Below the pieces are notes generated by a model, which had not been told where the DNA came from, searched no databases, and worked only from the letters and a program-made list of their open reading frames with translations. From assembly GCF_003577475.1 (NCBI RefSeq), contig NZ_QPEP01000001.1, positions 81,830-113,829 of the forward strand: DNA of 32,000 bases. The letters run 5' to 3'. Source of the stretch: Salinibius halmophilus. GTDB taxonomy: Bacteria; Pseudomonadota; Gammaproteobacteria; Pseudomonadales; Natronospirillaceae. The translations under genes and the position numbers were made by a program. Numbering within the stretch: the stretch's first letter is position 1; each line of letters starts with the position of its first letter. Shown here piece after piece: positions 13,374 to 32,000 of the stretch.

Positions 13374-13502
13374 TGCAATTTTTGCACACAAAAATAAGCT
13401 ACGACAAGGGCTAAGCGCATTTTTTGCAAAAATACCCTTTTTCCAGCCCTAATCGTAACTTGTTGATTTAAAACAACTTTTTAAAGAGCGCTTAAAACAA
13501 GG
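13374..13502 (-). promoter_or_regulatory. CRISPR leader (AT-rich) between cas6f and the first repeat
   Basis: A 129-nt AT-rich noncoding stretch lies directly cas-proximal to the intact end of the array. Repeat decay at the opposite end fixes the polarity. Confidence 0.6.
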
Positions 13503-14123: not shown

Positions 14124-14130
14124 ACACCAC

Positions 14131-15114: not shown

Positions 15115-15126
15115 TACTCTCCTTGC

Positions 15127-16071: not shown

Positions 16072-17384
16072 TACTGACCTCCTTGCTCGGTTCTGCCAAG
16101 CTCCACCATAGTGAGCTCATGCTTGATCACTTTGTTGATGTAGCGATGCTCTACATCGGCAAGCTTATAGCTTTTGTCATTCTGTAGGCGTCGCACTAAC
16201 CAATCGGTTAACCATTGGCTGACTATTAGCAGCCAGTCTTTGTTTTGCCGTTGTGTTTCATGTGCATGCGGGTCTAACCATGCTTGTAATGGCGCAGGCA
16301 AGCTGGTACTAGTTGACCAACCCGGCTCAAAAGAGGCTTGCAGCAACGCTGCTTGCTGCAATACGCGTTCGCAAATAGGAATGAGATACTGGTAGTCACG
16401 TTTGTAGCGCGTTTTAAAGTTACTATCTCGGTCGGTCAAATTAACCAAAAAGCTTTTGAACTCAGTAACGTGCCACCATGTCGCTTGGTCAAAGCGGCGC
16501 AGCAGCTGCGTTTCATTTTCGGGCGGCTTGGCAACTGCTTCAAAGGTGGGGGGTTGGCTGTTTAGCAGGTAAACCTTGCCCCCACGTTCATTGTTTAGCT
16601 GCGAGATATTTTGCGGCTTAGAACCACCAAAGTTTTGTACCGCAACATGAGGAAAACGCACATCAGTACGCTCGTGGTAATGCTCGTTACGCCTCGCGTC
16701 CCGCACTTCTTTACTGTCACCATAGCGGGTCGTTTCAATCGCTGCGTTATGAACCCCCATCAAGGATGATGCACCAAGTGGGCATAGTAAGTGATAACTA
16801 CCCTCTGCTACGGGAAAGTATACTTGCTTTAGCAACGTGTGCGCTGTCGGGTCTTTCACAGTGACAGCCTGCTTAAAGCCATCAAACCATTCACGGCGGA
16901 GGTCGGCGTTATCTGTAAAGGTATCTAAGGCATTAATGTGCCCCTGATTTAGCTGGTTAACCAAACTTTCGCCGTCCGCTTCAAGCTTTAGCAGTCGCGC
17001 GACATCAAGTGCTGCCGCATTGCCCACAGCGTCAATTTTTCGGACAGGAAGCGATGCCGTTGTTAAATACCGGCTTTCGTGGGTGTCGACTTCATCATCC
17101 AAGAAGCTACTAGCTTTCGCATCACTGTGGGCAAACTTAGCTGCATGAGTCGCCATGGCAATTTGTTTGGCGCGCTTTGCAGCATCAGTTAACCAGCTCT
17201 CTGGCTTAAACTGCTCTTCGAGCGCTTGTGCCCCCTCGGCAAAGGCTTGCTCGGCTGCCTCAATTTGCTCACTTGTAGCCGCCTCTTTTAACGCCTTATC
17301 GCGCGCTTTTTCTAAAGGTTCAAGCTTGGCTAGCTTGCGCCCTTTTATATAGTCAGCAATCGCTTGTTCTAACGTATCCGTCAT
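16071..17384 (-). CDS. csy1: Cascade large subunit Cas8f (Csy1)
   Basis: VGNAAALDVARLLKL, LLKQVYFPVAEGSYHLLCPL and QNFGGSKPQNISQLNNERGG match Csy1. Confidence 0.93.
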   Translation of the reverse strand: MTDTLEQAIADYIKGRKLAKLEPLEKARDKALKEAATSEQIEAAEQAFAEGAQALEEQFKPESWLTDAAKRAKQIAMATHAAKFAHSDAKASSFLDDEVDTHESRYLTTASLPVRKIDAVGNAAALDVARLLKLEADGESLVNQLNQGHINALDTFTDNADLRREWFDGFKQAVTVKDPTAHTLLKQVYFPVAEGSYHLLCPLGASSLMGVHNAAIETTRYGDSKEVRDARRNEHYHERTDVRFPHVAVQNFGGSKPQNISQLNNERGGKVYLLNSQPPTFEAVAKPPENETQLLRRFDQATWWHVTEFKSFLVNLTDRDSNFKTRYKRDYQYLIPICERVLQQAALLQASFEPGWSTSTSLPAPLQAWLDPHAHETQRQNKDWLLIVSQWLTDWLVRRLQNDKSYKLADVEHRYINKVIKHELTMVELGRTEQGGQ

Positions 17385-20300: not shown

Positions 20301-20731
20301 CATACCTGCTCTCCTTTACCGCTGAGCTTTTTCTGAAACAGTGCATTGGCTTTGCCAATATCATGAAACAGCCCACCAATGGCGGCAGCCAGTGATAGCA
20401 CCTGCGTATAGCGCCACCCATGCTCCCATTCGCCATGGGCTAGGTTGAGCTTTGTAGTGTTCACAGGCACTGTGCCATCTAGCGCAAACTTGCTGCGATT
20501 ACCAACAATCCAAATGAGCTCCGAGCGGCTGCGACTACGAAGCCAATGACAGCTCACTGCGGTACTGCGCGAGGCACTTTGGCGCAGCATTTTTTGCACA
20601 GTTTTCAGGCCATCTTCCGTAATAATGGTCTGCCAGGTGTTGTCCCCTATGCGGTTGGCAAAGGCATCCAGCACCCGCCTAGTTTTGGCAAGCGCCCGCT
20701 TTTCGCACTGGCTAACAAAGGTGACCATCAT
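17381..20731 (-). CDS. cas3: Cas2-Cas3 fusion nuclease/helicase (Cas2/3, type I-F)
   Basis: 1116 aa. It has a Cas2-like N-terminus (MMVTFVSQCEKRALAKTRRVLDAFA), an HD region (LFHDIGKAN...HH) and helicase motifs (ASTGCGKT, VLDEPDD, STATMP, RIQRH). It overlaps both cas1 and csy1 by 4 nt. Confidence 0.95.
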   Translation of the reverse strand: MMVTFVSQCEKRALAKTRRVLDAFANRIGDNTWQTIITEDGLKTVQKMLRQSASRSTAVSCHWLRSRSRSELIWIVGNRSKFALDGTVPVNTTKLNLAHGEWEHGWRYTQVLSLAAAIGGLFHDIGKANALFQKKLSGKGEQVWEPYRHEWVSFCAFLQLVDGKSDKEWLTQLAEISQANNGQLLDQKLCEALPNNQKVGEQFDQLASFAQLVAWLILSHHRLPLVHVTGDAPDLTKMKGWKSLLDESWNSANREKDCSEQALADNWHFPNGTPLKSSIWQHNASNLAQKALNCVDLFDEQNWLNQRFVSHIARMSLMLADHYYSSLPPEQSKAVWRDSTYTAVANTDRKTGKTKQQLDEHNIGVGLNALKFARNLPTLKLTLPALADHKFLKKKTNHKDFLWQNTAAQVAKKVASTTERQGFFGINMASTGCGKTVANAKIMYALADPNEGCRFSVALGLRTLTLQTGDSYRNLLKLDDDALAVLIGSQKIQDLHQLGKQTESKTGSDSANDPLAHLSVQYDGQIYDGRLKHWLAGNPKLEKMLSAPVMVSTIDHLMPATESLRGGKQIAPMLRLLTSDLVLDEPDDFSLADMPALSRLVNWAGMLGSRLLLSTATMPPALAESLFESYCVGRKYFDEANFNDGKPLQVQCAWFDEFSAEEQLIKRASEEEGVKAVFAQHHQKFIDKRLKALGPKLVKNRLGTCVPVIESDASVARRLAETIHQQIHQLHAKHHQTKSEKLSIGVVRFANIDNMVAVVKELVRLPSWENTAIHYCVYHSQFPLAMRSAKEAMLDRVLDRHDPEAIWQHDALKSASDKQNRIYVVLGTSVVEVGRDHDYDWAVVEPSSLRSIIQLAGRIQRHRKWPVADNNIAILNQNFKALLGKPLAFEKPGFETKGLPLVSHQVSDLMTNEQLQPISAQLRIQGPNSEALSQALNLGQTIEQAVKIDDFWLQEHRALAATLNKPKVLKKYRTKKEASLWWTCHGTWAGEFIRQTQFRRSDPQETFVYMCEEDGDPLTWHIVDDTSEMTYYLPAGQSRFNEEQVELATDVYWWQPDSAEAVMTRLANQFDMAGPATTKRFGELNLRAPRENEDPIRWHWHEQLGVFRRIKEKEQA

Positions 20732-21684
20732 GATTGGTAGTCCTCCAAGGCAATGCGTTTTACCGTATCAAACATAAAATCCAAGGCTTTGTGGTCAGCA
20801 AAGGCTTGCAGCACTTGCTGGCGAAATTCTTGCTCTGTCGCGCCTTCGCTGGCGCAAATGAAGGCCCATGGCAATACCAGTGCATCTTTAATAAGGTCCG
20901 CCACATCAAAAACCAAAGCACCGCGCCGAGTTTTACCGTGCATCACGGCAAAACCATGAGGAATGCCCAGCACCCATAAACAACTTGCTGCCAAACCGTA
21001 AGCTAAGTAATTGCCATGGTTTAAAAAATCATTAGCGGTATCGGCTGAGTCATGCTGGCGGGTGAATTCTTCGGTGCCTGTATTGTTAGCGGCATACTTG
21101 TAGATGGCTTTGGTGAATTGCGCTTCGCTGGTAAGCAAGTCGGTGGCTGAATTGGCGCGCTTGGTTTTTAGTTCCAGTTGCGCCAGTGCTTTCTCTACGG
21201 CGTGGTCATTGACATTAAAGCCCTGCTTTTTTAGCTCGCCATCTTTCGACCATACTTTTTGAATAAAGGCCATTCTGGCTTCTTGAAACTGGCGAGCAGC
21301 AACTAGGCGCAGTGCATCATCAAACCAGAATGACAGCCAGCCTTGCACATACTCGGTGGGGCGATATTCACTTTGTGGGCTAAGCCACTCTACTTCGGCA
21401 GCCATATGCAGCGGCGTTCCTCCGCCACCACAAAAGCCAACTAACACACCAGCCTTGGCAAGCATTCGCATGGCCGCCTGAGTAATGGAGGTACCTGTGC
21501 CGAGTAATATCACCGTGGTGTTTGCAATGGGGATATTGAAGTAATGATTTTCTTTTTTGCCCTCCGTGAGATACAAAACTCGGCCATCTTTTTGCATAAC
21601 ACGGCAATGCTCTAAGTAGAACAAATTGGCACGCTTAGAGTGCAAAATGGTCTTCATATCTAGCGATGAAAAATCATCCATCAC
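20728..21684 (-). CDS. cas1: CRISPR integrase Cas1 (type I-F)
   Basis: 318 aa. ILHSKRANLFYLEHCRV..., GTGTSITQAAMRMLAKAGV and LNHGNYLAYG fit I-F Cas1, as does its position first in the cas operon. Confidence 0.93.
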   Translation of the reverse strand: MMDDFSSLDMKTILHSKRANLFYLEHCRVMQKDGRVLYLTEGKKENHYFNIPIANTTVILLGTGTSITQAAMRMLAKAGVLVGFCGGGGTPLHMAAEVEWLSPQSEYRPTEYVQGWLSFWFDDALRLVAARQFQEARMAFIQKVWSKDGELKKQGFNVNDHAVEKALAQLELKTKRANSATDLLTSEAQFTKAIYKYAANNTGTEEFTRQHDSADTANDFLNHGNYLAYGLAASCLWVLGIPHGFAVMHGKTRRGALVFDVADLIKDALVLPWAFICASEGATEQEFRQQVLQAFADHKALDFMFDTVKRIALEDYQS

Positions 21685-21766: not shown

Positions 21767-22609
21767 TTACCCCTTTGGCCAAAAAGAGTCTTTTATTCGC
21801 TCTCGGCATTTCGGCTCAAGCACTATCTGTTGCGCAAATGGATCTTCGTTGTAGCGGTCTACGCGTAATTCTTGCAGTGCATAGTTCAACAAGGCCTTGC
21901 GAGTGGTAAGCTCTAGCTGGCCGTTTTGCATTCCATATTCAAGTTCAACACATTTGCGGTTGTTTTCTGGTAGACGAGGATCTGAAATGATGGTTAGTAC
22001 TAACTTGTTGTGCCAGTCATCATCAAACTCGCCGGTGTGCTCAGGAAATCCTTCGCTGGTAATTTCGCCTTCCTCGGCAAAGCGCGCCAATACAAAATCG
22101 GCGAAACGTCGATTCTTCTCGCAATAGGCTCGTGTGTGATAACGTCCGCTGGCAAAAACAATACTATGGGGCTGAATGACTCTATGCTCATGCTGCCCGC
22201 TGGATACCGAGTAGTACTTGGCTTCGAATCTTGATTGAGTTTCGATGGCAAAAAGCAGCTTGCCAATAATTTCTGGCGCTTCACTTCGTTGGTAAGACAA
22301 TGGTGTTTGAATGCCACCTACCAACACAGGGTGCTTTTCAACAAAATCATTAAAGGTGGGAACACAATTACTAGTGATAGGCTGGCCAACAGGGGTATAT
22401 AAATTTACTTGGCCGAGTTTTTCTATCGCTACATACCCTGCATCAACGTAGGGTTGAAGCTTCTTTAGTGCAGTGGGCTTGGTAACATTAAAACGTTGCT
22501 CAATACCTTTTCTGGTAAAGGGTTTTCGCCAGTATAAGCAAGCCTCGATATAACTGGTAATACTGCAGTTGCCACCTTGCATAGCCATTTCCCATGTGAA
22601 CCAATTCAC
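21767..22609 (-). CDS. WYL-domain transcriptional regulator (wHTH-WYL-C-terminal extension)
   Basis: The N-terminus is HTH-like (FTRKGIEQRFNVTKPTALKKLQPYVDAGYV). The central segment FEAKYYSVSSGQHEHRVIQPHSIVFASGRYHTRAYCEKNRRFADFVLARF fits the WYL-domain pattern. It is co-oriented with, and immediately upstream of, cas1. The exact start (M1, M8 or M10) is uncertain. Confidence 0.75.
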   Translation of the reverse strand: MNWFTWEMAMQGGNCSITSYIEACLYWRKPFTRKGIEQRFNVTKPTALKKLQPYVDAGYVAIEKLGQVNLYTPVGQPITSNCVPTFNDFVEKHPVLVGGIQTPLSYQRSEAPEIIGKLLFAIETQSRFEAKYYSVSSGQHEHRVIQPHSIVFASGRYHTRAYCEKNRRFADFVLARFAEEGEITSEGFPEHTGEFDDDWHNKLVLTIISDPRLPENNRKCVELEYGMQNGQLELTTRKALLNYALQELRVDRYNEDPFAQQIVLEPKCRERIKDSFWPKG

Positions 22610-22834
22610 ACAATATTACAGAGTGGTTTCAGCTACTGCTACCCTATATTAAACGCATAACATTGACATATGTTTATAAATCGACCGATTTTTATTGCTA
22701 TACCTACCCTTTGGTATTGGCCATTATAAAACTAGCGCTCTTCGGGACTTTGAGTGGTAGCAAGGCTTGATACCCCACTGCTTTAGGTTGCCGGTGGCAA
22801 TGCAATAAACTGTCTTAACTGAACTGGCAATCAA

Positions 22835-22863
22835 AGCTCAAACAGTGTTACGTAGTTTGAGCT
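22835..22863 (+). promoter_or_regulatory. conserved leader palindrome, copy A1 (AGCTCAAAC-n11-GTTTGAGCT), start of a ~95-nt conserved 5' region
   Basis: The same element and downstream block (TAGACTTnTGnCC...TCTGCTATGnnTGAGTA...CAGCA-ATG) occur upstream of all four lipoprotein genes. Confidence 0.45.
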
Positions 22864-22930
22864 GTGAGGCGGTGGTAGACTTATGGCCAAATTAATCTGC
22901 TATGCGTGAGTAGACGATCAAGGACCAGCA

Positions 22931-23890
22931 ATGAAGAAGCACGGAATGTTCCTTGCCGCAGCAAGCGCCCTGTTGTTATCAGCCTGTCAATCCAACAAGT
23001 GCACACCATCCGAGACAAATGTTTGCATCGACAACAAAGAAGCTGCGGACATTATGCAAGAGATTTTGGATGGTATGGTGTTTATCCCCGCCGGTGAGTT
23101 TTACATGGGGTTAGTGCAAGGGCCTGAAGATGAAATGCCTGAGCGTAAAATCTACATGGATGACTACTTCATCTACCAAAGTGAGCACACTTGGAAGCAA
23201 ATTGATGCGTTTTATCGCCTATCTGGTTATGGCTATACCGATGGCGCCTGGCAGTGGGAGCCTGAGAGTGGCGTTGATTTGGGCGCAGAGCAACCAGCTT
23301 TCGCAGTTTACTATTATGACGCGCATAATTTTTGCCAATGGATTGGTGACTTGACCGGTTTGGATGCAGGATTACAAACTGAAGCACAGTATGAAAAAGC
23401 AGCAAAAAATGGTAACCGCAGTCATGTTTGGGCAACTGCAGATAACCAGTTTATTGAAGGGCGCGATTATCCAACAATGGAACAACGAACTGTCACGTCT
23501 CGAAGTGGTCACGGTGAGTCGGTATTATTGTATATACCCGTTACCAGCCAGCCTCCAAGCCCTAACGGCTTATATGGATTGCATACTAATGGTGAAGAAT
23601 GGACGGCGGATCTGTGGCGGTCTAAGTTTCTAGAGTTAGCGGCGGATAGAAACCCTACATTCCCTGTGCCATACGAAACTCGCCTAGCAGGCCGACAAAT
23701 CAACAATGATAAAGAACTCAAGGCTGGAGAGCGCTTTGGCGTTGCCGTTAGAGGTGGTGGGCCAGCGTGGGACAGATATAATATTCAGAATAGTTATATC
23801 CAACAACGCATTGCTCGAGACGGTAGGGGTACTAATTCACTGCGGTGTACTATCAACGCTAGTCAACTGCCTACCATTAATCAACCTTAG
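22931..23890 (+). CDS. lipoprotein with FGE-sulfatase/SUMF1-type domain, paralog A1
   Basis: Lipobox signal peptide MKKHGMFLAAASALLLSAC. Motifs of the FGE-sulfatase family: MVFIPAGEFYMG, LQTEAQYEKAAKNG, NGLYGLHTNGEEW, VRGGGPAW, SLRC. Confidence 0.85.
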   Translation: MKKHGMFLAAASALLLSACQSNKCTPSETNVCIDNKEAADIMQEILDGMVFIPAGEFYMGLVQGPEDEMPERKIYMDDYFIYQSEHTWKQIDAFYRLSGYGYTDGAWQWEPESGVDLGAEQPAFAVYYYDAHNFCQWIGDLTGLDAGLQTEAQYEKAAKNGNRSHVWATADNQFIEGRDYPTMEQRTVTSRSGHGESVLLYIPVTSQPPSPNGLYGLHTNGEEWTADLWRSKFLELAADRNPTFPVPYETRLAGRQINNDKELKAGERFGVAVRGGGPAWDRYNIQNSYIQQRIARDGRGTNSLRCTINASQLPTINQP

Positions 23891-23901
23891 TTTTTGCAGC
23901 T

Positions 23902-23936
23902 GAATACCTGCCGTAGCAGCGCTTCGACAGGTATTC
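23902..23936. terminator. bidirectional hairpin between the convergent A1 and mini-ORF genes
   Basis: GAATACCTG...CAGGTATTC has 9-bp arms. The paralogous copy at 27052-27085 is a perfect 15-bp stem. Confidence 0.55.
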
Positions 23937-23940
23937 GACT

Positions 23941-24081
23941 TTAAAATGCTCGGCTAACGCTTCGAATTTTGGGTTCTTGCAGCCAATTATCTGCCGGTAG
24001 AATAGGCTCAATGCCATCGTAAGGCTGTAATGACTCAAACCAAGTTGCAAGTTCGGCTTTATCGTCGCTATCACTGAGCAT
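23941..24081 (-). CDS. 46-aa micro-protein (MLSDSDDKAELATWFESLQPYDGIEPILPADNWLQEPKIRSVSRAF), copy 1
   Basis: Not in the ORF track because it is under 60 aa. Against the paralog at 27090-27230, 8 of the 10 differing codons are synonymous in this frame, and the overlapping 65-aa track ORF accumulates amino-acid changes. The SD is weak. Confidence 0.6.
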   Translation of the reverse strand: MLSDSDDKAELATWFESLQPYDGIEPILPADNWLQEPKIRSVSRAF

Positions 24082-24153
24082 GTTTGATTAAAACATACTG
24101 CTTTTGGTTACCAGTTACTACCCAATTCCCTACAAAAACAGTGTTAGTAATCA

Positions 24154-24184
24154 CAGCTCAAACAGTATTCCGTGATTAGAGCTG
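24154..24184 (+). promoter_or_regulatory. conserved leader palindrome, copy B1 (CAGCTC...GAGCTG, weaker stem), within a ~260-nt leader
   Basis: Homologous to the A leaders up to a vestigial ATG at 24251. This is followed by a 15-codon uORF (24251-24298) and about 55 more nt before the B1 start. Confidence 0.4.
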
Positions 24185-24353
24185 ACTGGCAATGTTAGAC
24201 TTGTGGCCCAACTATTCTGCTATGCGTGAGTATACGACCAAGTATCAGCAATGAGTACTGCTAGCCTTAGCATGTCATTAGCGACCACCGTTAAATAGAG
24301 CCAAACAACACAACATGGTAAAGTAATCAAAAATATCAGGGAGCGACTAGGTT

Positions 24354-25265
24354 ATGAAAAGAAATGCTCTGTTAATCGCGACTCTGCCACTGCTAGTAAG
24401 CGCCTGTTTTGGTGGTACGTCTTGTGAGCCAACCAAACAACAAATTTGTGTCGACGATGATGAATTTGCCGAATACCTTCAAGGTGTAATGGATAACATG
24501 GTATACGTTGAGCCTGGCGAGTTTATTATGGGTATTAACAACGGCATTCCCGAAGAAGGCCCGCCCATAGAAGTGTACCTAGACGGTTATTATTTATTTA
24601 ATACCAAACATTCGTGGCTAGGGTTTGAGTTTTTTGATCAGAGGTCTGGGGTAGAGCGAAAGAATAAAAAGTTCGCCTATAATCCCGACCCCGAATTTAA
24701 TCAGGGTCGCTACGGCGCTGACTTCGCTGGAGCATTGCTTTCTTGGAATGAAGCTGAGCAGTTTTGTCATTGGCTAGGCTCTGAGACAGGTTTGCCATTT
24801 GAATTGCCAAGCGAAGCGCAGTGGGAAAAGGCTGCTAAAGCGGGCAATGATGATTGGATTTATGCTACTGACAACGGCCAATTAGATTTTGGGCGGAATT
24901 TCTTTAGCAAAGAAGACCATCGCAAAGGGCTTTACCCTGGCCACGAACTACCTTCGAAGTATTTCCCTCCTAACCCATACGGCTTCTACGAGATGGCCTT
25001 CAATGGGGGCGAATGGATGCGAGATGGCTATGTGGATAACTACCATGAACTGGCCGAACGCGAAAACCCGGTTATGTTGCCTGAAGACTTTGGCCTAGAG
25101 CCGGGCCCGCATATTACAAGAGTATGGCGTAGTGATTGGTCACTGGCGCATGACCTTACATTGAACTACCTCCAGTCTAGAAAAACATCAAACCCAGTTA
25201 CCGGTACATTCAGTGTGCGTTGTGCCATTAATACAACGAAACCATTGCCAGACGTTAAGTACTAG
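24354..25265 (+). CDS. lipoprotein with FGE-sulfatase/SUMF1-type domain, paralog B1
   Basis: Lipobox MKRNALLIATLPLLVSAC. Motifs MVYVEPGEFIMG, LPSEAQWEKAAKAG, NPYGFYEMAFNGGEW, VWRSDW, VRCA. Confidence 0.85.
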   Translation: MKRNALLIATLPLLVSACFGGTSCEPTKQQICVDDDEFAEYLQGVMDNMVYVEPGEFIMGINNGIPEEGPPIEVYLDGYYLFNTKHSWLGFEFFDQRSGVERKNKKFAYNPDPEFNQGRYGADFAGALLSWNEAEQFCHWLGSETGLPFELPSEAQWEKAAKAGNDDWIYATDNGQLDFGRNFFSKEDHRKGLYPGHELPSKYFPPNPYGFYEMAFNGGEWMRDGYVDNYHELAERENPVMLPEDFGLEPGPHITRVWRSDWSLAHDLTLNYLQSRKTSNPVTGTFSVRCAINTTKPLPDVKY

Positions 25266-25285
25266 ATTACAGAACGATGGATAGC

Positions 25286-25693
25286 CTATTCGGCTATCCA
25301 ATCTACGATATAGTCTAATGGTCCATATAGCCAATCTTTCGGAGGATATACGTCGGCGTCAAAATCACCCTCCAACTCTTCAAACCAGCCTTTCAGTTCA
25401 TTAAGATACAACCCTAAGCCTAGTCTTATTTTGATCGCTTCTGCTGTTTCCTCAGCGAGTTGATACTTCACTTCTGTTGGGCGATTTGCATTCTGGGGGC
25501 CGTGGGGGCTTTCTAGAGTGTGTTCTAATACCTCATGAAATTCGCGACGCGTAGAGATACCATTAACTAAAAGGTACAGCATCGCTTTACGCTTCTTGCC
25601 AAACCAATCAATATCCCATGAGCCCGTGTCATCTATTAAAAACCATAGCCAATTACCAATTACTTCTGGCGGGGCGTTTTTCGCGCCGGGCAA
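25286..25693 (-). CDS. orphan copy of the C-terminal domain of the giant protein (135 codons, TTG start at best)
   Basis: Aligns end to end with the last 129 aa of the 28436..32000 protein, with about 83 of 129 identical by my manual count and the same ...DWIAE* terminus. Homology (NIDLWR against HIDFIR) continues about 12 codons upstream of the TTG to an in-frame TAG. There is no ATG and no visible SD. Confidence 0.5.
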   Translation of the reverse strand: MPGAKNAPPEVIGNWLWFLIDDTGSWDIDWFGKKRKAMLYLLVNGISTRREFHEVLEHTLESPHGPQNANRPTEVKYQLAEETAEAIKIRLGLGLYLNELKGWFEELEGDFDADVYPPKDWLYGPLDYIVDWIAE

Positions 25694-25838
25694 CGGGTAT
25701 CGCCACAGGTCAATGTTTCCCGAACCTTCGGTTCGAAAAACCTACCGGTTGCTACCGGATGTATGATTGCCTGTCGGTTGTACTGGGCGTTTTTTACCTC
25801 TCCTCTACAGTGCGGCCCTCTTTTTCTTCGCCGTGCGG

Positions 25839-25964
25839 TTATTCAAGGCAGTGTTCGAGCACTTCGTTGAACTCGCGCAGCGTAGAAATACCCTTGGCTA
25901 ATAACGACTGGTTAATCTGAACACCTGCTGTTATTGGTTGCCAATTACTCCCCAGCAACCTGCT
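25839..25964 (-). pseudogene. decayed third fragment of the same C-terminal domain (…LLGSNW…QSLLAKGISTLREFNEVLEHCLE*)
   Basis: The minus-strand translation matches LYLLKNGVSSRREFHEVLEHCLE of the giant protein. It is bounded by in-frame stops, and the region between the IGNW-like motif and the LLK motif is deleted. Confidence 0.55.
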
Positions 25965-25983
25965 TCAACATAGCCAGCAATCA

Positions 25984-26014
25984 CAGCTCAAACAGTGTTA
26001 CGTGGTTTGAGCTG
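25984..26014 (+). promoter_or_regulatory. conserved leader palindrome, copy A2 (CAGCTCAAAC-n11-GTTTGAGCTG)
   Basis: Perfect 10-bp arms. The 96-nt block up to the ATG differs from copy A1 at 6 positions. Confidence 0.45.
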
Positions 26015-26080
26015 TGAGGCGGTGGTAGACTTATGACCAAATTAATCTGCTATGTATGAGTAGACAATCAAGGATCAGCA

Positions 26081-27040
26081 ATGAAGAAGCATGGATTTTT
26101 GCTTGCCGCAGCAAGCGCCTTGTTGTTATCAGCCTGTCAATCCAACAAGTGCACACTATCCGAGACAAATGTTTGCATCGACAACAAAGAAGTTGCTGAC
26201 ATAATGCAAGAGATTTTGGATGGCATGGTGTTTATCCCAGCCGGTGAGTTTTACATGGGGTTGGTGCAAGGGCCTGAGAATCAAATGCCTGAGCGAAAAA
26301 TCTATATGGATGACTACTTCATCTACCAAAGTGAGCACACTTGGAAGCAAATCGATGCGTTTTATCGCCTATCTGGTTATGGCTATACCGATGGCGCAAA
26401 ACAATGGGAACCCGAACGCGGAGTCAACCTTGGCGCGAACCAGCCTGCCTATGCTGTTTACTATTACGACGCGCATAATTTTTGCCAATGGATTGGTGAC
26501 TTGACCGGTTTGGATGCAGGATTACAAACTGAAGCACAGTATGAAAAAGCAGCAAAAAATGGTAACCGCAGTCATGTTTGGGCAACTGCAGATAACCAGT
26601 TTATTGAAGGGCGCGATTATCCAACAATGGAACAACGAACTGTCACGTCTCGAAGTGGTCACGGTGAGTCGGTATTATTGTATATACCCGTTACCAGCCA
26701 GCCTCCAAGCCCTAACGGCTTATATGGCCTACATACCAATGGCGAGGAATGGACAGCGGATCTGTGGCGGTCTAAATATCTAGAGTTAGCGGCGGATAGA
26801 AACCCTACATTCCCTGTGCCATACGAAACTCGTCTAGCAGGCCGACAAATCAACAATGATAAAGAACTCAAGGCTGGAGAGCGCTATGGCGTTGCGGTTC
26901 GTGGTGGTGGGCCAGCATGGGACAGATACAATATTCAGAATAGTTATATCCAACAACGCATTGCTCGAGACGGCACTGGTAGCAACTCTCTTCGCTGCAC
27001 TATTAACGCCAGTGTGCTTCCTACCATTAATCAGCCTTAG
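26081..27040 (+). CDS. lipoprotein with FGE-sulfatase/SUMF1-type domain, paralog A2
   Basis: 319 aa. About 16 amino-acid differences from A1, clustered in a few patches. Confidence 0.85.
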   Translation: MKKHGFLLAAASALLLSACQSNKCTLSETNVCIDNKEVADIMQEILDGMVFIPAGEFYMGLVQGPENQMPERKIYMDDYFIYQSEHTWKQIDAFYRLSGYGYTDGAKQWEPERGVNLGANQPAYAVYYYDAHNFCQWIGDLTGLDAGLQTEAQYEKAAKNGNRSHVWATADNQFIEGRDYPTMEQRTVTSRSGHGESVLLYIPVTSQPPSPNGLYGLHTNGEEWTADLWRSKYLELAADRNPTFPVPYETRLAGRQINNDKELKAGERYGVAVRGGGPAWDRYNIQNSYIQQRIARDGTGSNSLRCTINASVLPTINQP

Positions 27041-27051
27041 TTTTTGCCGGT

Positions 27052-27085
27052 GAATACCTGTCGAAGTAAACTTCGACAGGTATTC
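27052..27085. terminator. bidirectional hairpin between the convergent A2 and mini-ORF genes
   Basis: GAATACCTGTCGAAG-TAAA-CTTCGACAGGTATTC is a perfect 15-bp stem. Confidence 0.6.
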
Positions 27086-27089
27086 AAGT

Positions 27090-27230
27090 TTAAAATGCTC
27101 TACTAACACTTCGAATTTTTGGCTCTTGCAGCCAATTATCTGCTGGTAGAATAGGCTCAATCCCATCGTAAGGCTGTAATGACTCAAACCAAGTTGCAAG
27201 TTCGGCTTTATCTTCTCTATCACTGAGCAT
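27090..27230 (-). CDS. 46-aa micro-protein, copy 2 (MLSDREDKAELATWFESLQPYDGIEPILPADNWLQEPKIRSVSRAF)
   Basis: See copy 1. Only 2 amino-acid changes despite 11 nucleotide differences. Confidence 0.6.
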   Translation of the reverse strand: MLSDREDKAELATWFESLQPYDGIEPILPADNWLQEPKIRSVSRAF

Positions 27231-27304
27231 GTTTGATTAGAACATCTACTGCTTTTGGTTACCAGTTACTACCCAATTCCCTACAAAAACAGTGTTAGTA
27301 ATAA

Positions 27305-27335
27305 CAGCTCAAACAGTATTCCGTGATTAGAGCTG
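27305..27335 (+). promoter_or_regulatory. conserved leader palindrome, copy B2
   Basis: The leader at 27248-27504 differs from the B1 leader at 24097-24353 at only 2 positions. Confidence 0.4.
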
Positions 27336-27504
27336 ACTGGCAATGTTAGACTTGTGGCCCAACTATTCTGCTATGCGTGAGTATACGACCAAGTATCAGC
27401 AATGAGTACTGCTAGCCTTAGCATGTCATTAGCGACCACCGTTAAATAGAGCCAAACAACACAACATGGTAAAGTAATCAAAAATATCAAGGAGCGACTA
27501 GGTT

Positions 27505-28458
27505 ATGAAAAGTAATGCTCTGTTAATCGCGACTCTGCCACTGCTAGTAAGTGCCTGTTTTGGTGGTACGTCTTGTGAGCCAAACGAACAACAAATTTGT
27601 GTCGACGACGAAGAGTTTGCCGAATATCTTCAAGGTGTAATGGATAACATGGTATACGTTGAGCCTGGCGAGTTTATCATGGGCATTAACAACGGCATTC
27701 CCGACGAAGGCCCGCCCATAGAAGTGTACCTAGACGGTTATTATTTATTTAATACCAAACACTCTTGGCTAGGGTTTGAGTTTTTTGATCAGAGGTCTGG
27801 AATTGAAAGACAAGAAAAAGGCCGATTTTCGTACAATCCCGATCCAGACTTCAACAATGGTCGATATGGTTCCGAGTTCCCAGGCGCCTTTTTGTCTTGG
27901 ACCGAAGCTAGTCAATTTTGTCGGTGGTTAGGCTCTGAGACAGGATTGCCATTCGTATTACCAAGTGAAGCGCAATGGGAAAAAGCAGCCAAGAGCGGTA
28001 ACAGTGACTGGATTTATGCGACGGATAACGGGCAACTGGAGTTTGGTCGAAACTTTTATAGTGAAGAAGACTACCGATCTGGCAAGTACCCTGGCGATCG
28101 CTTACCCTCCAAATACTTTCCGCCAAACCCTTATGGCTTTTACGAGATGGCTTTTAACGGTGGGGAATGGATGCGAGATGGCTATGTAGATAACTACCAT
28201 GAACTCGCCGAGCGCGATAATCCGGTTATGTTGCCTGAAGACTTTGGCTTAGAGCCGGGTCCACATATCACTCGAGTTTGGCGGAGTGACTGGTCTTTGG
28301 CACATGACCTTACATTAAATTACATACAGTCCAGAAAAACCGCAGATCCAAGCAGTGGAAGGCATGGAGTCAGGTGTGCGATTAACTCAAGCTCTCCATT
28401 GCCGCAAATCGTTTACCAGCAGTGGACTGGATTGCCTACTCGGCAATCCAATCACTAA
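27505..28458 (+). CDS. lipoprotein with FGE-sulfatase/SUMF1-type domain, paralog B2
   Basis: 317 aa with the same motifs as B1. The stop codon of B1 (TAG) is CAG here (28417-28419), giving a 13-aa tail that overlaps the 3' end of the convergent giant gene by 23 nt. Confidence 0.85.
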   Translation: MKSNALLIATLPLLVSACFGGTSCEPNEQQICVDDEEFAEYLQGVMDNMVYVEPGEFIMGINNGIPDEGPPIEVYLDGYYLFNTKHSWLGFEFFDQRSGIERQEKGRFSYNPDPDFNNGRYGSEFPGAFLSWTEASQFCRWLGSETGLPFVLPSEAQWEKAAKSGNSDWIYATDNGQLEFGRNFYSEEDYRSGKYPGDRLPSKYFPPNPYGFYEMAFNGGEWMRDGYVDNYHELAERDNPVMLPEDFGLEPGPHITRVWRSDWSLAHDLTLNYIQSRKTADPSSGRHGVRCAINSSSPLPQIVYQQWTGLPTRQSNH

Positions 28459-31400
28459 GGTACTCTAGAGGGTTGTATAGCCAATCATACTGTGGAAGCG
28501 TATCATCACTAAAATCGCCCTCAAGATTATTGAACCACTCTTTCAGCTCCAGTCGCAACACAACAGTGCTAAGCCTATTGCGTATAGCTTCAGCGGTTTC
28601 TTCAACTAAAGCCGATTTGACTTCAGCTGTTCGCGACTGGTGCTCGATGCTGTGTGGGCTTTCCAAGCAATGCTCAAGAACCTCATGAAATTCACGACGA
28701 GAGGATACTCCGTTTTTGAGCAAATATAATATTGCCTTTCGTTTTTTATTGAGGAAATCCCAATCAAAGAGCCCTGTTTCGCTAATCAAAAACCAAAGCC
28801 AATTACCAATGACTTCGGGGGGGGCACTTCTAATAAAGTCAATATGCTCTTCAGAGCAACGTTCTACGATTGTGAATACTAAATCGTCCGCTTTTGAGTC
28901 CTTCCACTCTGCATCCCACAATTGTACTTGATCAATAGCCGAGATTGACGCACGAACTAACTTTTGATTAGCTCGGTCGGTGAGCTCATCCCAGAATTCG
29001 GAGCCTCCCGATGCATACACTGCGGCATCGACGAGGTTGTAGCGACCTAAGGTCAAAAGCCCCCATACTGCAGCGCAATAGTATTCATAAACACGCTCGT
29101 CATCAAAAATGTCAGCAATACGAAACTCTGCTTTTTTAAGTTGTTCGTAAATAACTACGAAGAAGTTGTAAATCTGAGCGACATCCACAGCAGCGGTCAT
29201 TTCGCCGCCTCCGCCGACTTTCACTACGAGCTTGGCTTTAAAAGAAATTAAAAACTTACTGGAGCCTCGGTCAAACCCAATCTTCAAATCAAATGCAGCA
29301 CCTACCCCTAGCGCTGCTGTAACAATGTAGCCAAGACTTCCCAGTTCTTTAAACTCACTGTCTTTAATTGGCTCACTTGGCTTGGTTGGTTTATGCCACA
29401 TCAACTTGCCTGCTATACCTGCCGAGGCCTCAACACCGGCAAATACTTCACCGCCTAGGTTTGCACCACCACTTGGAAGGTTAAGGCCTTCTGGTGCGCT
29501 ACCAGCGTAGCTCATATATACGGTTTTAGAACGCGTGTCGCCGTTAGCATTCGTCACTGTTCGGGCCTGATTTACCGTTTCAGTTGCGCCGTTTGTTCTA
29601 ATGTTTGTCGTAGTCGTTGTTGTTTGATTATTTACGTGATCAAGTTGCTGCGAAGCTTGCTCTACCGAGCTTTTGCCCCAAGGCACCCCGGTATTTAAAT
29701 GCACCCCGCCACTTAGGCTTGCCTTTACACAAGCAGCCGCCGATAAAGTAAATTCAACGTCTACTCTTAGGTAGCCAAACTCAAACTCTTGCTCAACCTT
29801 TTGCCCAGTAAAACCATCAGGCTCTTTATCCACAACCGACAAAGCCAGTTGAGTACCAATCGTTTTGTTTGGATGCGGTGCGGCATCCGCTTCTGGACTC
29901 GCCTTTTTAGGTAAAACTCTATTAAAGTAAGAGGCTTGCGTACCTTGTGGGGTAGGCATTTTATAGTGGCTTAAATCGCGCGTATCAATTGCTGCATCCA
30001 GTAAACTACTGTCTACTTGCGGAACGTCTCGCTGCAACTTTGCCTTGAAGGCTGGGCGGTGCTGTAGGTTGAAATCAGCATATAGATTCGAAACCGAAGC
30101 GGGGGACGATGACGAGAACTCGATGTTCCGACATAAAAACTCCCGTACAACTTTGTACCTTAATTCGCGTAACTGTTTTTTAAACTCTCGCCCTAGCAAT
30201 TCTTCATCACCATGAATGGTTCGAAGTGATAGCGCAAAATGCCTATTTGTATCGTCGGCTGTTAACGACTGAAGCAAGGCATAGTTCAATTTATCTGTGC
30301 CAGCAAAACTATGTATGTCACTGAGCACAGAGTCATGCATTGCCTTTAATAAGCTCACGCCTGCGGGGGTCAGTTCAATACTGAACTTTTTAAACAATGG
30401 CGGCTCGTAATTGCTGCCGCCATGATTTGCGGGCATCATGTCGAACGGGGCAGGCACTAGGCTGTCGTTAAAGAACTTTTCATACCCTGTCACCATGGTT
30501 GAGCTGTCCACTGTGATCTCTACTCGCCGGTTAGTTGCCATGCCAACACTAGTGGAGTTGGTTGCTTTACTCAGGCTCTCACCATATGAAATAGTGCGAA
30601 TGGAACCAGCAAATAAGCCTTTATTCATCAACTTCGCTTTCACGGCCTCGGCACGTGCCAGCCCTAGCGCGACGTTATCGTTTTCTTGGCCTTCACTATC
30701 AGTAAATCCCTTTACTAATAGCTTGACACCAGGCTCACGAGATACTTGGTCTACAATCCCTTGCAGCATGGTGTCATATGAAGCGTCTACCAGTGCTGAG
30801 CTCGAAGCGAAGCGTATGTCCTCTGGCGTGCTTAACTCCCAATTACCAAGGCGCTTGAAAAGTCTAACCCCATGCGGGAAATAGCCTTCCATATGCTGGA
30901 AATCTTTCAGCGTACAAAAAACGTGAAGCACCTCAGTTTTGTACTTGAACTTGTGAGCTTTAAACTTAACCGAGGCGTCAAAGCCATTTGAGTTAGGCAA
31001 TTTACATCCGCCTCGCACGCTACCCTCTGCCAAAGCAGCTCTGGCTTTAAGCTCCCCAGCTAGAGCAAGGTTGCCATCTAGTGGGTTGAAATCTGCCTTG
31101 CCTGTGGCTGTGCCCATGTAGCGCAAAAAAGAACCGTTACCGGAGGCGTCCCACTGCATTGGCGGCAGGTTCGCATCTTTTACTGCCGACTTTAGCTCAC
31201 GCCAAGCTTTTTCTTGCCTTGAAGCGCTATCGCCGCTCATGGACATTGAACCACCTGTAGACTGCTGGCTTAGCCCCATTGGCCAGTAAGCCTTAACTGG
31301 GGATTCGCCAGCCCATAGCTCGTCACACTTTCGATCAATTCGGCCCCAATTTTCGTGAGTAATGAGCTGCTCGAGTGTTTCTTCAGATGGATTGTCTGGC

Positions 31401-32000
31401 CCGAATAAATCAACGATATGCTGTCGCTGCTCTGCCCGCGCATCGGTTTTGAAGTGCAAAGCCTGGTTTAGCTTTGTAATACCTCGATCCAGGCTATTCA
31501 AAAACTCAGAGTTATCAATCTTACCCTTCAGTGCCGGGTCGAAGCCATTTGCCGCATTCGCTATAAATTTCAAAGAAATTTGCCCAGATGCTGTGTACTC
31601 TTTCGCAACACTTAACGAAGCGATAGGCTCAGGCTCTTCAGCATTTATTCCTTGCTTACCGTACTTAAAGTTGGCTGGTGGCACGCTACTTTTTTCCGAG
31701 AAGTCCATCGTGCCGTCAGCGGCAAGTGCTCGCCAAAAACCCGAAATGTCAATTGTGCGATCGGCGGGCAACTGGCCATTTGCTAACTTACTAATTGGTA
31801 CAAGAAGCACATGCTCCTTGGGAATTTCAGTACCAAATAGAATGTCGTCGTCCCCTACCTGCTCCGCAGCACCGCTCGCTTTGGTGTTAAAGCATGTAAT
31901 GAAGTCTAGGGTTTCGGTGTTGCCAATCTTGACGCCTTGCGATTGCATTATGGCAAGGAGATTCCCTTTCTTTTCTTCAACATCAGCAGTTTTAGAGCCG
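28436..32000 (-). CDS. giant protein (>1170 aa, 5' end probably outside the window) with an internal OmpA-like peptidoglycan-binding domain and the exchangeable C-terminal domain
   Basis: The reading frame stays open upstream of the first ATG (31948) to the window edge (…GSKTADVEEKKGNLLAI-MQSQ…), and there is no SD before that ATG. OmpA_C-like segment: VKLLVKGFTDSEGQENDNVALGLARAEAVKAKLMNKG...NRRVEITV, at about 30510-30830. It also has a Thr/Asn-rich tract (QTTTTTTN) and Gly/Ala-rich amphipathic segments. Confidence 0.85.
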   Translation of the reverse strand, partial: GSKTADVEEKKGNLLAIMQSQGVKIGNTETLDFITCFNTKASGAAEQVGDDDILFGTEIPKEHVLLVPISKLANGQLPADRTIDISGFWRALAADGTMDFSEKSSVPPANFKYGKQGINAEEPEPIASLSVAKEYTASGQISLKFIANAANGFDPALKGKIDNSEFLNSLDRGITKLNQALHFKTDARAEQRQHIVDLFGPDNPSEETLEQLITHENWGRIDRKCDELWAGESPVKAYWPMGLSQQSTGGSMSMSGDSASRQEKAWRELKSAVKDANLPPMQWDASGNGSFLRYMGTATGKADFNPLDGNLALAGELKARAALAEGSVRGGCKLPNSNGFDASVKFKAHKFKYKTEVLHVFCTLKDFQHMEGYFPHGVRLFKRLGNWELSTPEDIRFASSSALVDASYDTMLQGIVDQVSREPGVKLLVKGFTDSEGQENDNVALGLARAEAVKAKLMNKGLFAGSIRTISYGESLSKATNSTSVGMATNRRVEITVDSSTMVTGYEKFFNDSLVPAPFDMMPANHGGSNYEPPLFKKFSIELTPAGVSLLKAMHDSVLSDIHSFAGTDKLNYALLQSLTADDTNRHFALSLRTIHGDEELLGREFKKQLRELRYKVVREFLCRNIEFSSSSPASVSNLYADFNLQHRPAFKAKLQRDVPQVDSSLLDAAIDTRDLSHYKMPTPQGTQASYFNRVLPKKASPEADAAPHPNKTIGTQLALSVVDKEPDGFTGQKVEQEFEFGYLRVDVEFTLSAAACVKASLSGGVHLNTGVPWGKSSVEQASQQLDHVNNQTTTTTTNIRTNGATETVNQARTVTNANGDTRSKTVYMSYAGSAPEGLNLPSGGANLGGEVFAGVEASAGIAGKLMWHKPTKPSEPIKDSEFKELGSLGYIVTAALGVGAAFDLKIGFDRGSSKFLISFKAKLVVKVGGGGEMTAAVDVAQIYNFFVVIYEQLKKAEFRIADIFDDERVYEYYCAAVWGLLTLGRYNLVDAAVYASGGSEFWDELTDRANQKLVRASISAIDQVQLWDAEWKDSKADDLVFTIVERCSEEHIDFIRSAPPEVIGNWLWFLISETGLFDWDFLNKKRKAILYLLKNGVSSRREFHEVLEHCLESPHSIEHQSRTAEVKSALVEETAEAIRNRLSTVVLRLELKEWFNNLEGDFSDDTLPQYDWLYNPLEYLSDWIAE
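30510..30830 (-). other. OmpA C-terminal-like (peptidoglycan-binding) domain inside the giant protein
   Basis: GFTDSxGxxxxNxxLxxxRAxAVxxxL...NRRVEI is the hallmark OmpA/MotB/Pal motif series. Confidence 0.7.

What the first reader, a model, noticed from the sequence alone, without database searches (positions are those of the whole stretch)
25286..25735. Orphan C-terminal cassette keeps a 135-codon open frame at about one-third amino-acid divergence but has no ATG or SD
Seen:
- The minus-strand segment aligns without gaps to the terminal 129 aa of the giant protein and ends in the same DWIAE*.
- About 46 of 129 residues differ, yet there is no frameshift or stop.
- Similarity (NIDLWR against HIDFIR) continues upstream of the only possible start (TTG 25693) to an in-frame TAG at about 25736.
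- No Shine-Dalgarno is visible.
- The N-terminal boundary motif APPEVIGNWLWFLI is the best conserved block, in the way VENN or PxxxxDPxGL junctions mark exchangeable tips in CdiA and Rhs.

Inference: this is either a silent cassette available for recombination into the full-length gene at the APPEVIGNW junction, or a displaced former tip still under selection. A neutrally decaying pseudogene at this divergence would normally have lost its frame.
Basis: partly seen in the sequence, partly recalled or inferred. Interest (0 to 1): 0.7.

Follow-up and report, generated by a model that had tools for sequence, protein, structure and literature searches.

The report
Leftover tail of a displaced toxin gene
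The orphan fragment is the leftover 3' end of a bacterial-warfare (type VI secretion) toxin gene that a newer toxin gene pushed aside while its protective immunity genes were kept, which is a known way such gene arrays grow and not a new kind of switchable cassette.

Summary
On the minus strand, 25289-25681 aligns without gaps to the last 131 aa of the large OmpA-domain protein (83/131 identical, E 8e-55). The frame is open for 151 codons and has no Shine-Dalgarno.

The large gene (Salinibius halmophilus, 1274 aa) belongs to a rare family that sits in a conserved module: vgrG, then effector, then a convergent FGE-domain lipoprotein. This is the published Tse3/Tsi3-type type VI secretion effector-immunity layout. 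That layout includes immunity genes on the opposite strand, most often in arrays of four, and four are present here.

The orphan is part of a 3150-bp repeat unit (effector tail plus two immunity genes). The array also holds two older kinds of effector-tail relic:
- a P0004-type relic with stop codons;
- two copies of a 35-codon P0009-type relic, each next to its matching immunity type.

This is the signature of sequential effector displacement.

The C-terminal domain is not polymorphic. Every detectable homologue (10 real hits among 1.84 billion representatives) has the same domain after APPEV. The low dN/dS (pN 0.27, pS 0.91, saturated) reflects divergence before displacement, and the orphan lineage shows no rate excess. 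So it is a recent, not yet decayed relic: a new member of a known kind, of modest interest.

The parts
25286..25741 (-). Orphan effector C-terminal fragment (CT'). The open frame is 151 codons plus a stop. Homology to the family C-terminal domain runs 25681->25289. The 5' 20 codons have no demonstrable homology.
   Evidence: NCBI annotates only 25582->25286 as a 98-aa protein (P0001).
28436..32000 (-). Resident full-length effector gene (P0002, 1274 aa, 'OmpA family protein', Salinibius halmophilus). It runs off the right end of the window. Its C-terminal domain is at 28436-28831.
   Evidence: Homologues lie directly downstream of vgrG in L002, L003, L004 and L006.
27505..28458 (+). A: a Tsi3-like FGE-domain lipoprotein, presumed cognate immunity of the resident effector. 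It is convergent with the effector gene and overlaps its 3' end by 23 nt.
   Evidence: Pfam FGE-sulfatase E 1.9e-19. 64% identical to the gene after P0003 in L001. Signal peptide ending VSAC. Shine-Dalgarno duplex -7.7 kcal/mol.
26081..27040 (+). B: a second, different Tsi3-like lipoprotein (33% identical to A), an orphan immunity gene of the P0009 type.
   Evidence: Pfam E 1.8e-24. 72% identical to the gene after P0009 in L002.
24354..25265 (+). A': the Tsi3-like lipoprotein paired with the orphan tail; its stop is 20 nt from the orphan's stop. It is 85% identical to A. Codons 1-100 are nearly identical to A, and codons 100-300 are anciently diverged.
   Evidence: pS 0.1-0.2 in the first part, then 0.5-1.0; pN stays at or below 0.2.
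22931..23890 (+). B': a copy of B (95% aa identity) at the far end of the array.
25755..25965 (-). Decayed relic of a P0004-type effector tail, with two in-frame stops, a frameshift and an internal deletion. The core at 25788-25904 is 79% identical to the C-terminal domain of the paralogue P0004. It has no immunity gene of its own. It lies in the 241-nt stretch (25736-25976) that has no counterpart in the other repeat unit.
   Evidence: (E 7e-16), and reading.
27129..27233 (-). Relic of the last 35 codons of a P0009-type effector, lying between A and B and ending next to the 3' end of B.
   Evidence: tblastn of P0009 residues 1165-1199: 54% identity, E 4e-8.
23980..24084 (-). Second copy of the P0009-type 35-codon relic, between A' and B'.
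   Evidence: tblastn: 51% identity, E 5e-8.
22827..25675 (.). Repeat unit 1 (B', relic, A', CT'). It aligns to unit 2 at 25977-28825 with a 3150-bp offset and 84.6% nucleotide identity overall. Identity is strongly mosaic, from 100% tracts down to 52-62% over the effector tail.
25735..25758 (-). Terminator-like hairpin (CCGGTAGCAACCGG) plus a T-run, immediately upstream of the orphan frame. The frame's upstream TAG lies within it.
   Evidence: This is a consensus match only.

Best explanation
The window holds a Tse3/Tsi3-type type VI secretion effector-immunity locus.

Layout:
- One full-length effector gene (P0002) is followed by an array of four convergently oriented FGE-domain lipoprotein genes: A, B, A' and B'.
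- The orphan is the 3' end of the previously resident effector gene.

How it most likely arose (inferred):
- An incoming module (effector, A, relic, B) recombined into the locus. One end used homologous sequence upstream, and the other end joined illegitimately near 25740.
- This cut off the old effector about 20 codons before APPEV and pushed its tail, together with its cognate immunity genes A' and B', further down the array.
- The immunity genes keep signal peptides, Shine-Dalgarno sites and a shared 5' region. They are probably retained because they protect against non-kin effectors.
- The orphan tail itself is most likely untranslated debris that is too young to have decayed.

Shown here:
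- the homology and the repeat structure;
- the three relic classes and their pairing with cognate immunity types;
- the conserved vgrG-effector-immunity module in homologues;
- the constancy of the C-terminal domain;
- saturated dS with no rate excess in the orphan lineage.

Inferred: secretion by the type VI system, the immunity function, the direction and mechanism of the displacement, and the lack of expression.
For: Module:
- In 7 of 7 contig loci the homologue is followed by a convergent FGE-sulfatase gene, often overlapping its 3' end.
- It is preceded by a Phage_GPD (VgrG) gene wherever the upstream gene has a Pfam record (L002, L003, L004, L006).

Literature:
- Lopez et al. 2021 show that A. 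baumannii Tsi3 is an FGE-domain immunity protein encoded on the strand opposite tse3.
- 84% of its homologues lie in groups of two or more adjacent copies, most often four. The copies are non-identical and do not cross-protect.
- Kirchberger et al. 2017 describe effector displacement that shifts old immunity genes and effector 3' ends downstream.

Relics:
- P0004-type relic with stops (E 7e-16).
- P0009-type 35-codon relics beside the B-type genes (E 4e-8), with B 72% identical to the immunity gene partnered with P0009.

Orphan:
- pN 0.27 and pS 0.91; codon-position identity 69/76/34%.
- Relative-rate counts are 5-10 for the orphan against 7 for the resident.
- No Shine-Dalgarno, and a hairpin plus T-run directly upstream.

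Not a simple duplication:
- dS is mosaic. A/A' codons 1-100 have pS of about 0.15, while codons 100-300 and the effector tail are saturated.
- A unique 241-nt spacer separates the two units.
Against: - Neither vgrG nor any type VI apparatus gene is visible in the window, because the effector gene runs off the edge.
- Sequence homology to A. baumannii Tse3 could not be tested.
- No second Salinibius genome was available, so no intermediate or alternative array was seen.
- The P0004-type relic lacks an immunity gene, which needs an extra deletion or a donor-derived origin.
- An intact 151-codon frame is also what selection for an expressed product would give.
- The near-identical tracts show ongoing gene conversion between the units, so some exchange between copies does occur.
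Confidence: 0.72

Rival explanations
1. Silent specificity cassette. CT' together with the diverged 3' two-thirds of A' is a stored alternative toxin-tail/immunity block. Gene conversion could copy it into the resident pair, using the APPEV patch on one side and the near-identical 5' part of A/A' on the other. Because the two genes are convergent, this would switch effector tail and immunity together.
For: - The anciently diverged block is contiguous (about 24640-25681) and spans both gene ends.
- Gene-conversion tracts of 100% identity exist elsewhere in the repeat.
- APPEV is the best-conserved nucleotide patch, at 27/30.
Against: - On the effector side the usable homology is a 41-nt patch at 88% identity, with a 14-nt longest exact match. 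There is no homology upstream of it.
- No homologue shows an unrelated domain after APPEV.
- The older relics in the same array are plainly decaying, which is not how a maintained cassette store should look.
- No recombinant allele is known.
Confidence: 0.08
2. Expressed stand-alone protein. The orphan is translated from TTG 25693, from ATG 25582 (as NCBI annotates) or from a non-canonical start. It is kept by selection, for example as a partner or decoy for the A' lipoprotein.
For: - The frame is open for 151 codons.
- The orphan lineage shows no excess of amino-acid change, and conserved family residues are retained. Among sites where both outgroups agree, only C->T in EVLEHC and one D->A are unique to the orphan.
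- The AlphaFold model of the 149-aa product is confident (pLDDT 82).
- NCBI calls a 98-aa gene here.
Against: - The anti-SD duplex is at background level for both starts.
- A hairpin plus T-run lies immediately upstream, and no promoter-like site lies between it and the starts.
- Either start removes part of the helical domain. The domain begins about 20 residues before APPEV, and the ATG lies inside a helix.
- No stand-alone homologue of this domain exists among 1.84 billion representatives other than this annotation itself.
- The product would have no signal peptide, whereas A' is a lipoprotein exported from the cytoplasm.
Confidence: 0.08
3. In-situ tandem duplication of a 3150-bp segment (effector tail plus A plus B). 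The copies then diverged, with partial homogenisation by gene conversion, and no horizontal transfer was involved.
For: - The offset is a regular 3150 bp and the gene order is identical in both units.
- Tracts of 95-100% identity are present.
Against: - Synonymous sites in the effector tail and the 3' part of A are saturated. That would require a very old duplication, yet an untranslated tail of that age should be riddled with stops, as the P0004-type relic is.
- The 241 nt between the units have no counterpart at the left end of unit 1.
- The orphan lineage shows no rate excess.
Confidence: 0.1

Closest known systems
Tse3-Tsi3 effector-immunity modules of Acinetobacter baumannii and relatives (Lopez et al. 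2021, bioRxiv 10.1101/2021.05.21.445229; published in J Bacteriol 203:e0028121)
   Same: - The order is vgrG, then a large effector of unknown function (about 940-1300 aa), then an FGE-domain immunity gene on the opposite strand.
- The immunity genes form arrays of non-identical copies, most often four.
- The immunity proteins lack the catalytic cysteine pair of FGE.
   Different: - The effector here carries a clear OmpA-like peptidoglycan-binding domain. Tse3 of A. baumannii (1001 aa) is reported with no conserved domain.
- Sequence homology between the two effectors was not tested.
- The paper does not describe effector-tail relics between the immunity genes.
Sequential displacement of T6SS effector genes creating immunity-gene arrays in Vibrio cholerae (Kirchberger et al. 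2017, PMC5361080)
   Same: - A single intact effector is followed by several immunity genes.
- The 3' ends of displaced effectors are shifted downstream.
- The proposed mechanism is a homologous anchor upstream plus an illegitimate join downstream.
   Different: - The effector and immunity families are different.
- The immunity genes here are convergent with the effector. The old effector tail therefore abuts the 3' end of its cognate immunity gene rather than preceding its 5' end.
- No strain series is available here to order the events.
Orphan CT/immunity modules of Rhs and CdiA polymorphic toxins (Jackson et al. 2009; Poole et al. 2011; Koskiniemi et al. 2014, as cited in PMC5361080)
   Same: Promoterless 3' fragments of toxin genes lie downstream of the full-length gene, each with its immunity gene. 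They arise by C-terminal displacement.
   Different: - In Rhs and CdiA the tips are unrelated in sequence after a junction motif (PxxxxDPxGL or VENN). The orphans keep a stretch of the conserved core that allows homologous recombination back into the main gene.
- Here the C-terminal domain is one conserved family.
- No core sequence is retained upstream of APPEV.
- The immunity gene is on the other strand.

Membership tests
Tse3/Tsi3-type T6SS effector-immunity module | The immunity protein has an FGE (PF03781) domain | tested here: met
   A, A', B and B' all match FGE-sulfatase, E 2e-19 to 2e-24.
Tse3/Tsi3-type T6SS effector-immunity module | The immunity gene lies directly after the effector gene on the opposite strand | tested here: met
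   A (27505-28458, +) overlaps the effector 3' end (28436, -) by 23 nt. The same layout is seen in L001-L008.
Tse3/Tsi3-type T6SS effector-immunity module | Immunity genes occur in arrays of adjacent, non-identical copies | tested here: met
   Four copies are present. A against B is 33% identical, A against A' 85%, and B against B' 95%. Groups of four are the commonest class in Lopez et al..
Tse3/Tsi3-type T6SS effector-immunity module | The immunity protein lacks the two catalytic cysteines of true FGE | tested here: inconclusive
   None of the four proteins has a CxxxxC pair inside the FGE domain; the only such pair is in the N-terminal lipoprotein region of B and B'. No residue-by-residue alignment to a solved FGE was made.
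Tse3/Tsi3-type T6SS effector-immunity module | vgrG lies immediately upstream of the effector, and the genome encodes a T6SS | not testable with these tools
   The effector gene runs off the window, and the genome could not be fetched. In homologue loci a Phage_GPD gene is adjacent in L002, L003, L004 and L006; there is a weak DUF2345 match in L001; none is adjacent in L008.
Tse3/Tsi3-type T6SS effector-immunity module | The effector is a sequence homologue of A. baumannii Tse3 (WP_001070510.1) | not tested
   The Tse3 sequence was not obtainable. Searches with P0002, with the family profile and against plasmids did not reach Acinetobacter Tse3.
Polymorphic toxin with exchangeable C-terminal tips (CdiA/Rhs type) | A conserved junction motif is followed by unrelated C-terminal sequences in different homologues | tested here: not met
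   A profile search of 1.84 billion representatives gave 11 hits, one of them spurious. Every full-length hit is collinear, with the same domain after APPEV and an invariant EVLEH. The distant L008 homologue keeps the domain as well.
Polymorphic toxin with exchangeable C-terminal tips (CdiA/Rhs type) | The orphan retains conserved core sequence upstream of the junction that can drive homologous recombination | tested here: not met
   There is no nucleotide homology upstream of APPEV. The longest exact match to the resident copy is 14 nt.
Polymorphic toxin with exchangeable C-terminal tips (CdiA/Rhs type) | Rhs/YD repeats or CdiA FHA / pre-toxin domains are present, and the immunity gene is co-directional downstream | tested here: not met
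   Pfam finds only OmpA in the effector. The immunity genes are convergent.
Immunity-gene array built by sequential effector displacement | 3' remnants of earlier effector genes lie beside their cognate immunity genes, downstream of one intact effector | tested here: met
   CT' lies beside A'. P0009-type relics lie beside B and B', and B is 72% identical to the immunity gene partnered with P0009. A P0004-type relic with stops is also present.
Immunity-gene array built by sequential effector displacement | Related strains show the intermediate or alternative arrays | not testable with these tools
   No other Salinibius locus was retrievable. No orphan tails were found in L001-L008.

The most novel reading that the evidence does not exclude
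Effector and immunity genes are convergent here, so the effector tail and the C-terminal two-thirds of its immunity protein form one contiguous, anciently diverged block of about 1 kb (about 24640-25681). The orphan CT'/A' block might be a stored alternative specificity module. Gene conversion between the tandem units could then swap toxin tail and immunity together, which would be a two-gene cassette switch not described for Tse3/Tsi3 systems.
Probability: 0.07. Interest if true: 0.65.

Novelty: new member of a known kind. Interest (0 to 1): 0.3.

Why it matters
Lopez et al. left open how arrays of Tsi3-type immunity genes are built. This locus gives a clear worked example. It shows three generations of effector-tail relics, each next to the immunity type that partners that effector type elsewhere. 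This supports displacement by incoming effector-immunity modules in this family as well.

The locus also documents a very rare effector subfamily (10 real hits in 1.84 billion protein representatives). The subfamily has an OmpA-like domain and a conserved helical C-terminal domain with no known fold relative.

The result corrects a tempting inference. Low dN/dS and an intact frame in an orphan fragment do not show selection on the orphan when the divergence predates displacement.

It does not reveal a new mechanism.

Tried and rejected
Searches that found nothing useful:
- Two scans of genome contigs, one with the C-terminal-domain profile and one with the full-length profile, found no relative. 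The Salinibius genome is apparently not in that collection.
- One scan of metagenome contigs also found nothing.
- Exact look-ups of P0001, P0002 and P0004 had no record. The paralogue's locus, and the region upstream of the effector where vgrG would lie, could therefore not be read.
- The word-indexed protein search missed most of the family. The C-terminal-domain profile returned only the orphan annotation. The 9-sequence family profile returned only three proteins.
- tblastn of P0002 against plasmids hit only OmpA domains. P0010 gave one useful distant locus, L008.
- NCBIfam has no specific model for the effector or for the orphan.

Ideas considered and rejected:
- HEVLEH as a zinc-protease HExxH motif. 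The spacing is wrong, and the first His is not conserved (N, Q, L or K in other members).
- A simple recent tandem duplication, because dS is saturated.
- The NIDLWR/HIDFIR extension of homology, because it has no nucleotide support.

Full report
**1. Observation**

- The minus-strand frame 25741..25289 is open for 151 codons, with the stop at 25288-25286. The in-frame upstream stop is TAG at 25744-25742.
- BLASTP against the large minus-strand protein gives 83/131 identities, no gaps, E 8e-55. From APPEV onward it is 83/129. Both sequences end in DWIAE followed by a stop.
- Nucleotide homology begins at the APPEV codons (about 25681) and is not detectable upstream.
- Neither candidate start has a Shine-Dalgarno. 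The anti-SD duplex is -1.9 kcal/mol for TTG 25693 and -2.0 for ATG 25582, against a background of -1.7 +/- 2.3. The four neighbouring lipoprotein genes score -5.1 to -7.7.
- NCBI nevertheless annotates a 98-aa protein from ATG 25582 (P0001).
- A terminator-like hairpin and T-run lie directly upstream of the frame, at 25758-25735.

**2. Selection signal**

- By Nei-Gojobori counting over the 131 aligned codons, pS is 0.906 (saturated) and pN is 0.267. Identity by codon position is 69/76/34%. Most of the divergence therefore accumulated under purifying selection.
- Relative-rate counts used the two other full-length homologues as outgroups. The orphan has 5-10 unique changes and the resident tail has 7. 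At sites where both outgroups agree, the orphan has 2 derived states and the resident has 5.
- So the orphan lineage shows no relaxed-constraint excess. This fits a fragment that was part of a working gene until recently. It does not by itself show selection on the orphan.
- My rough estimate is that an excess of at most about 3 changes over about 310 non-synonymous sites bounds any neutral period to roughly 0.01-0.03 substitutions per site. At that level an intact 151-codon frame is unsurprising (inference).

**3. Local anatomy**

- The orphan is one end of a 3150-bp repeat. Positions 22827-25675 align to 25977-28825 at 84.6% identity.
- Each unit holds an effector tail and two plus-strand lipoprotein genes: A (27505-28458) or A' (24354-25265), and B (26081-27040) or B' (22931-23890). 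All four match Pfam FGE-sulfatase.
- The genes are convergent with the effector. A overlaps the effector 3' end by 23 nt, and A' stops 20 nt from the orphan's stop.
- Identity along the unit is mosaic. There are 100% tracts at 23344-23543 and 24192-24341, but only 52-62% identity over the effector tail.
- Synonymous divergence is mosaic too. In A/A', pS is 0.1-0.2 over codons 1-100 and 0.5-1.0 over codons 100-300. In B/B', pS ranges from 0 to 0.76 and includes a zero-divergence tract.
- The anciently diverged segment is thus one contiguous block of about 1 kb, spanning the orphan tail and the 3' two-thirds of A'.
- The 241 nt between the units (25736-25976) have no counterpart at the left end of unit 1.

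**4. Older relics**

- tblastn finds a second tail relic at 25788-25904 on the minus strand, LLAKGISTLREFNEVLEHCLE*PHGEEKEGRTVEER*KT. It is 79% identical to the tail of the paralogue P0004 and has two in-frame stops (E 7e-16). A decayed APPEVIGNW-like string lies upstream of it in another frame.
- Between A and B, and again between A' and B', lie relics of the last 35 codons of a P0009-type effector: 27129-27233 and 23980-24084, E about 4e-8.
- B and B' are 72% identical to the lipoprotein encoded after P0009 in locus L002. A and A' are 59-64% identical to the one after P0003 in L001.
- So each relic type sits beside the immunity type that partners that effector type elsewhere. The three relic classes are at three stages of decay.

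**5. The family**

- The large gene is P0002, a 1274-aa 'OmpA family protein' of Salinibius halmophilus. It runs off the window.
- A profile of the C-terminal domain was searched with HMMER against 1.84 billion representative proteins. It found 11 hits at E <= 0.001, one of them a spurious repeat protein.
- Nine members (938-1299 aa, one of them a 715-aa partial sequence) align collinearly over their whole length. The domain is at the C-terminus in each, and APPEV and EVLEH are invariant.
- A still more distant homologue on a Pseudoalteromonas piscicida chromid keeps a diverged version of the domain (VPEAKG...DEVLQH) and is followed by two convergent FGE genes.
- AlphaFold2 models the tail as an all-helical domain (orphan model pLDDT 82, pTM 0.78). 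In the longer construct the helical domain starts about 20 residues before APPEV.
- APPEVIGNW is therefore the first strongly conserved motif inside a constant domain, preceded by a variable linker. It is not a junction between a constant body and exchangeable tips.
- Foldseek found no PDB relative.

**6. The system**

- In all seven contig loci of homologues the order is: upstream gene, effector, then a convergent FGE-sulfatase gene.
- The upstream gene is Phage_GPD (VgrG) in L002, L003, L004 and L006. It is a weak DUF2345 match in L001. It is truncated and unannotated in L005 and L007.
- This matches the published vgrG3-tse3-tsi3 module of A. baumannii:
  - Tsi3 is an FGE-domain immunity protein encoded on the strand opposite tse3.
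  - It binds Tse3, and non-cognate homologues do not cross-protect.
  - 84% of Tsi3 homologues occur in groups of two or more adjacent, non-identical copies, most often four (Lopez et al. 2021).
- For how such arrays form, those authors point to the V. cholerae model. In that model an incoming effector-immunity module displaces the resident effector by homology-facilitated illegitimate recombination. This shifts the old immunity gene, and sometimes the old effector's 3' end, downstream (Kirchberger et al. 2017).

**7. Best explanation**

- The orphan is the tail of the most recently displaced effector at this locus. It was left with its cognate immunity gene A' and the older B' when a module carrying P0002, A, a P0009-type relic and B arrived. 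That module may also have carried the P0004-type relic.
- The immunity genes are probably functional. They keep lipoprotein signal peptides, Shine-Dalgarno sites and a conserved 5' region of about 180 nt shared by all four.
- The orphan tail is probably not expressed.
- A plain tandem duplication does not fit. A recent one cannot give saturated dS, and an old one should have destroyed an untranslated frame.
- Gene conversion between the units is evident, so the silent-cassette reading cannot be excluded. However, usable homology on the effector side is only a 41-nt patch with a 14-nt longest exact match.

**8. Limits**

- The window ends inside the effector gene, and the genome could not be retrieved. 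vgrG linkage and presence of a T6SS in this organism are therefore inferred from homologues.
- Homology to Acinetobacter Tse3 itself was not tested.
- Secretion, toxicity, immunity and expression all remain untested.

**9. Verdict**

This is a real feature with a good eye-level description. It is an ordinary product of a known process: a new member of a known kind, in a rare and uncharacterised effector subfamily.

Noticed in passing
window 9865-21684: A complete type I-F CRISPR-Cas system lies next to the array: cas1 (20728-21684), cas2-3 (17381-20731) and csy1-4 (13503-17384), all on the minus strand. There is also a long array of the 28-nt repeat TTTCTAAGCCGCCTGTGCGGCGGTGAAG with a 60-nt period, spanning at least 9865-12772.
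   Followed up: partly
window 21767-22609 (-): A WYL-domain protein gene sits between cas1 and the immunity-gene array. Whether it regulates either neighbour is unknown.
   Followed up: no
window 22760-22940, 25910-26090, 24080-24260, 27229-27411: All four Tsi3-like genes share a conserved 5' segment of about 180 nt. A perfect 9-bp palindrome, AGCTCAAAC-N11-GTTTGAGCT, occurs only upstream of B and B' (22835-22863 and 25985-26013; none expected by chance). In A and A' the segment ends about 100 nt before the real start codon. This could be a shared promoter or operator. The antisense strand carries a decayed APPEVIGNW-like string, so part of the segment may itself derive from an effector tail.
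   Followed up: partly
window 28436-28458 and 25265-25286: A (317 aa) has a 14-aa C-terminal extension relative to A' (303 aa) and overlaps the effector's last codons by 23 nt. Overlap of the convergent 3' ends recurs in homologue loci: 36 nt in L003, 39 nt in L004 and L005, and 4 nt in L007.
   Followed up: partly
P0002 residues about 830-1030 (window about 29170-29770, -): The AlphaFold model of the effector's C-terminal 459 aa predicts four very long (about 26-residue) beta strands before the helical tail. Confidence is only 50-67 pLDDT. The region is rich in G/A/S and includes KVGGGGE. This may be a membrane-inserting or pore-forming element; no fold match was found.
   Followed up: partly
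window 28436-32000: The ORF lister reports the large gene as 1170 aa starting at ATG 31948. The gene actually continues beyond the window, and the database protein P0002 is 1274 aa.
   Followed up: yes
L008 7345-12289 (Pseudoalteromonas piscicida NZ_CP074588.1): A distant 980-aa homologue with a diverged tail domain is followed by two convergent FGE-domain genes. It has no adjacent vgrG; PPK2 and DUF2252 genes lie upstream. The record carries almost no annotation.
   Followed up: partly
L003 (Gynuella sunshinyii CP007142.1, 6386659-6409493): The P0010 module lies in a cluster with four Phage_GPD (VgrG-type) ORFs in all and a VasX_N-domain protein. This suggests a multi-effector T6SS island.
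   Followed up: no
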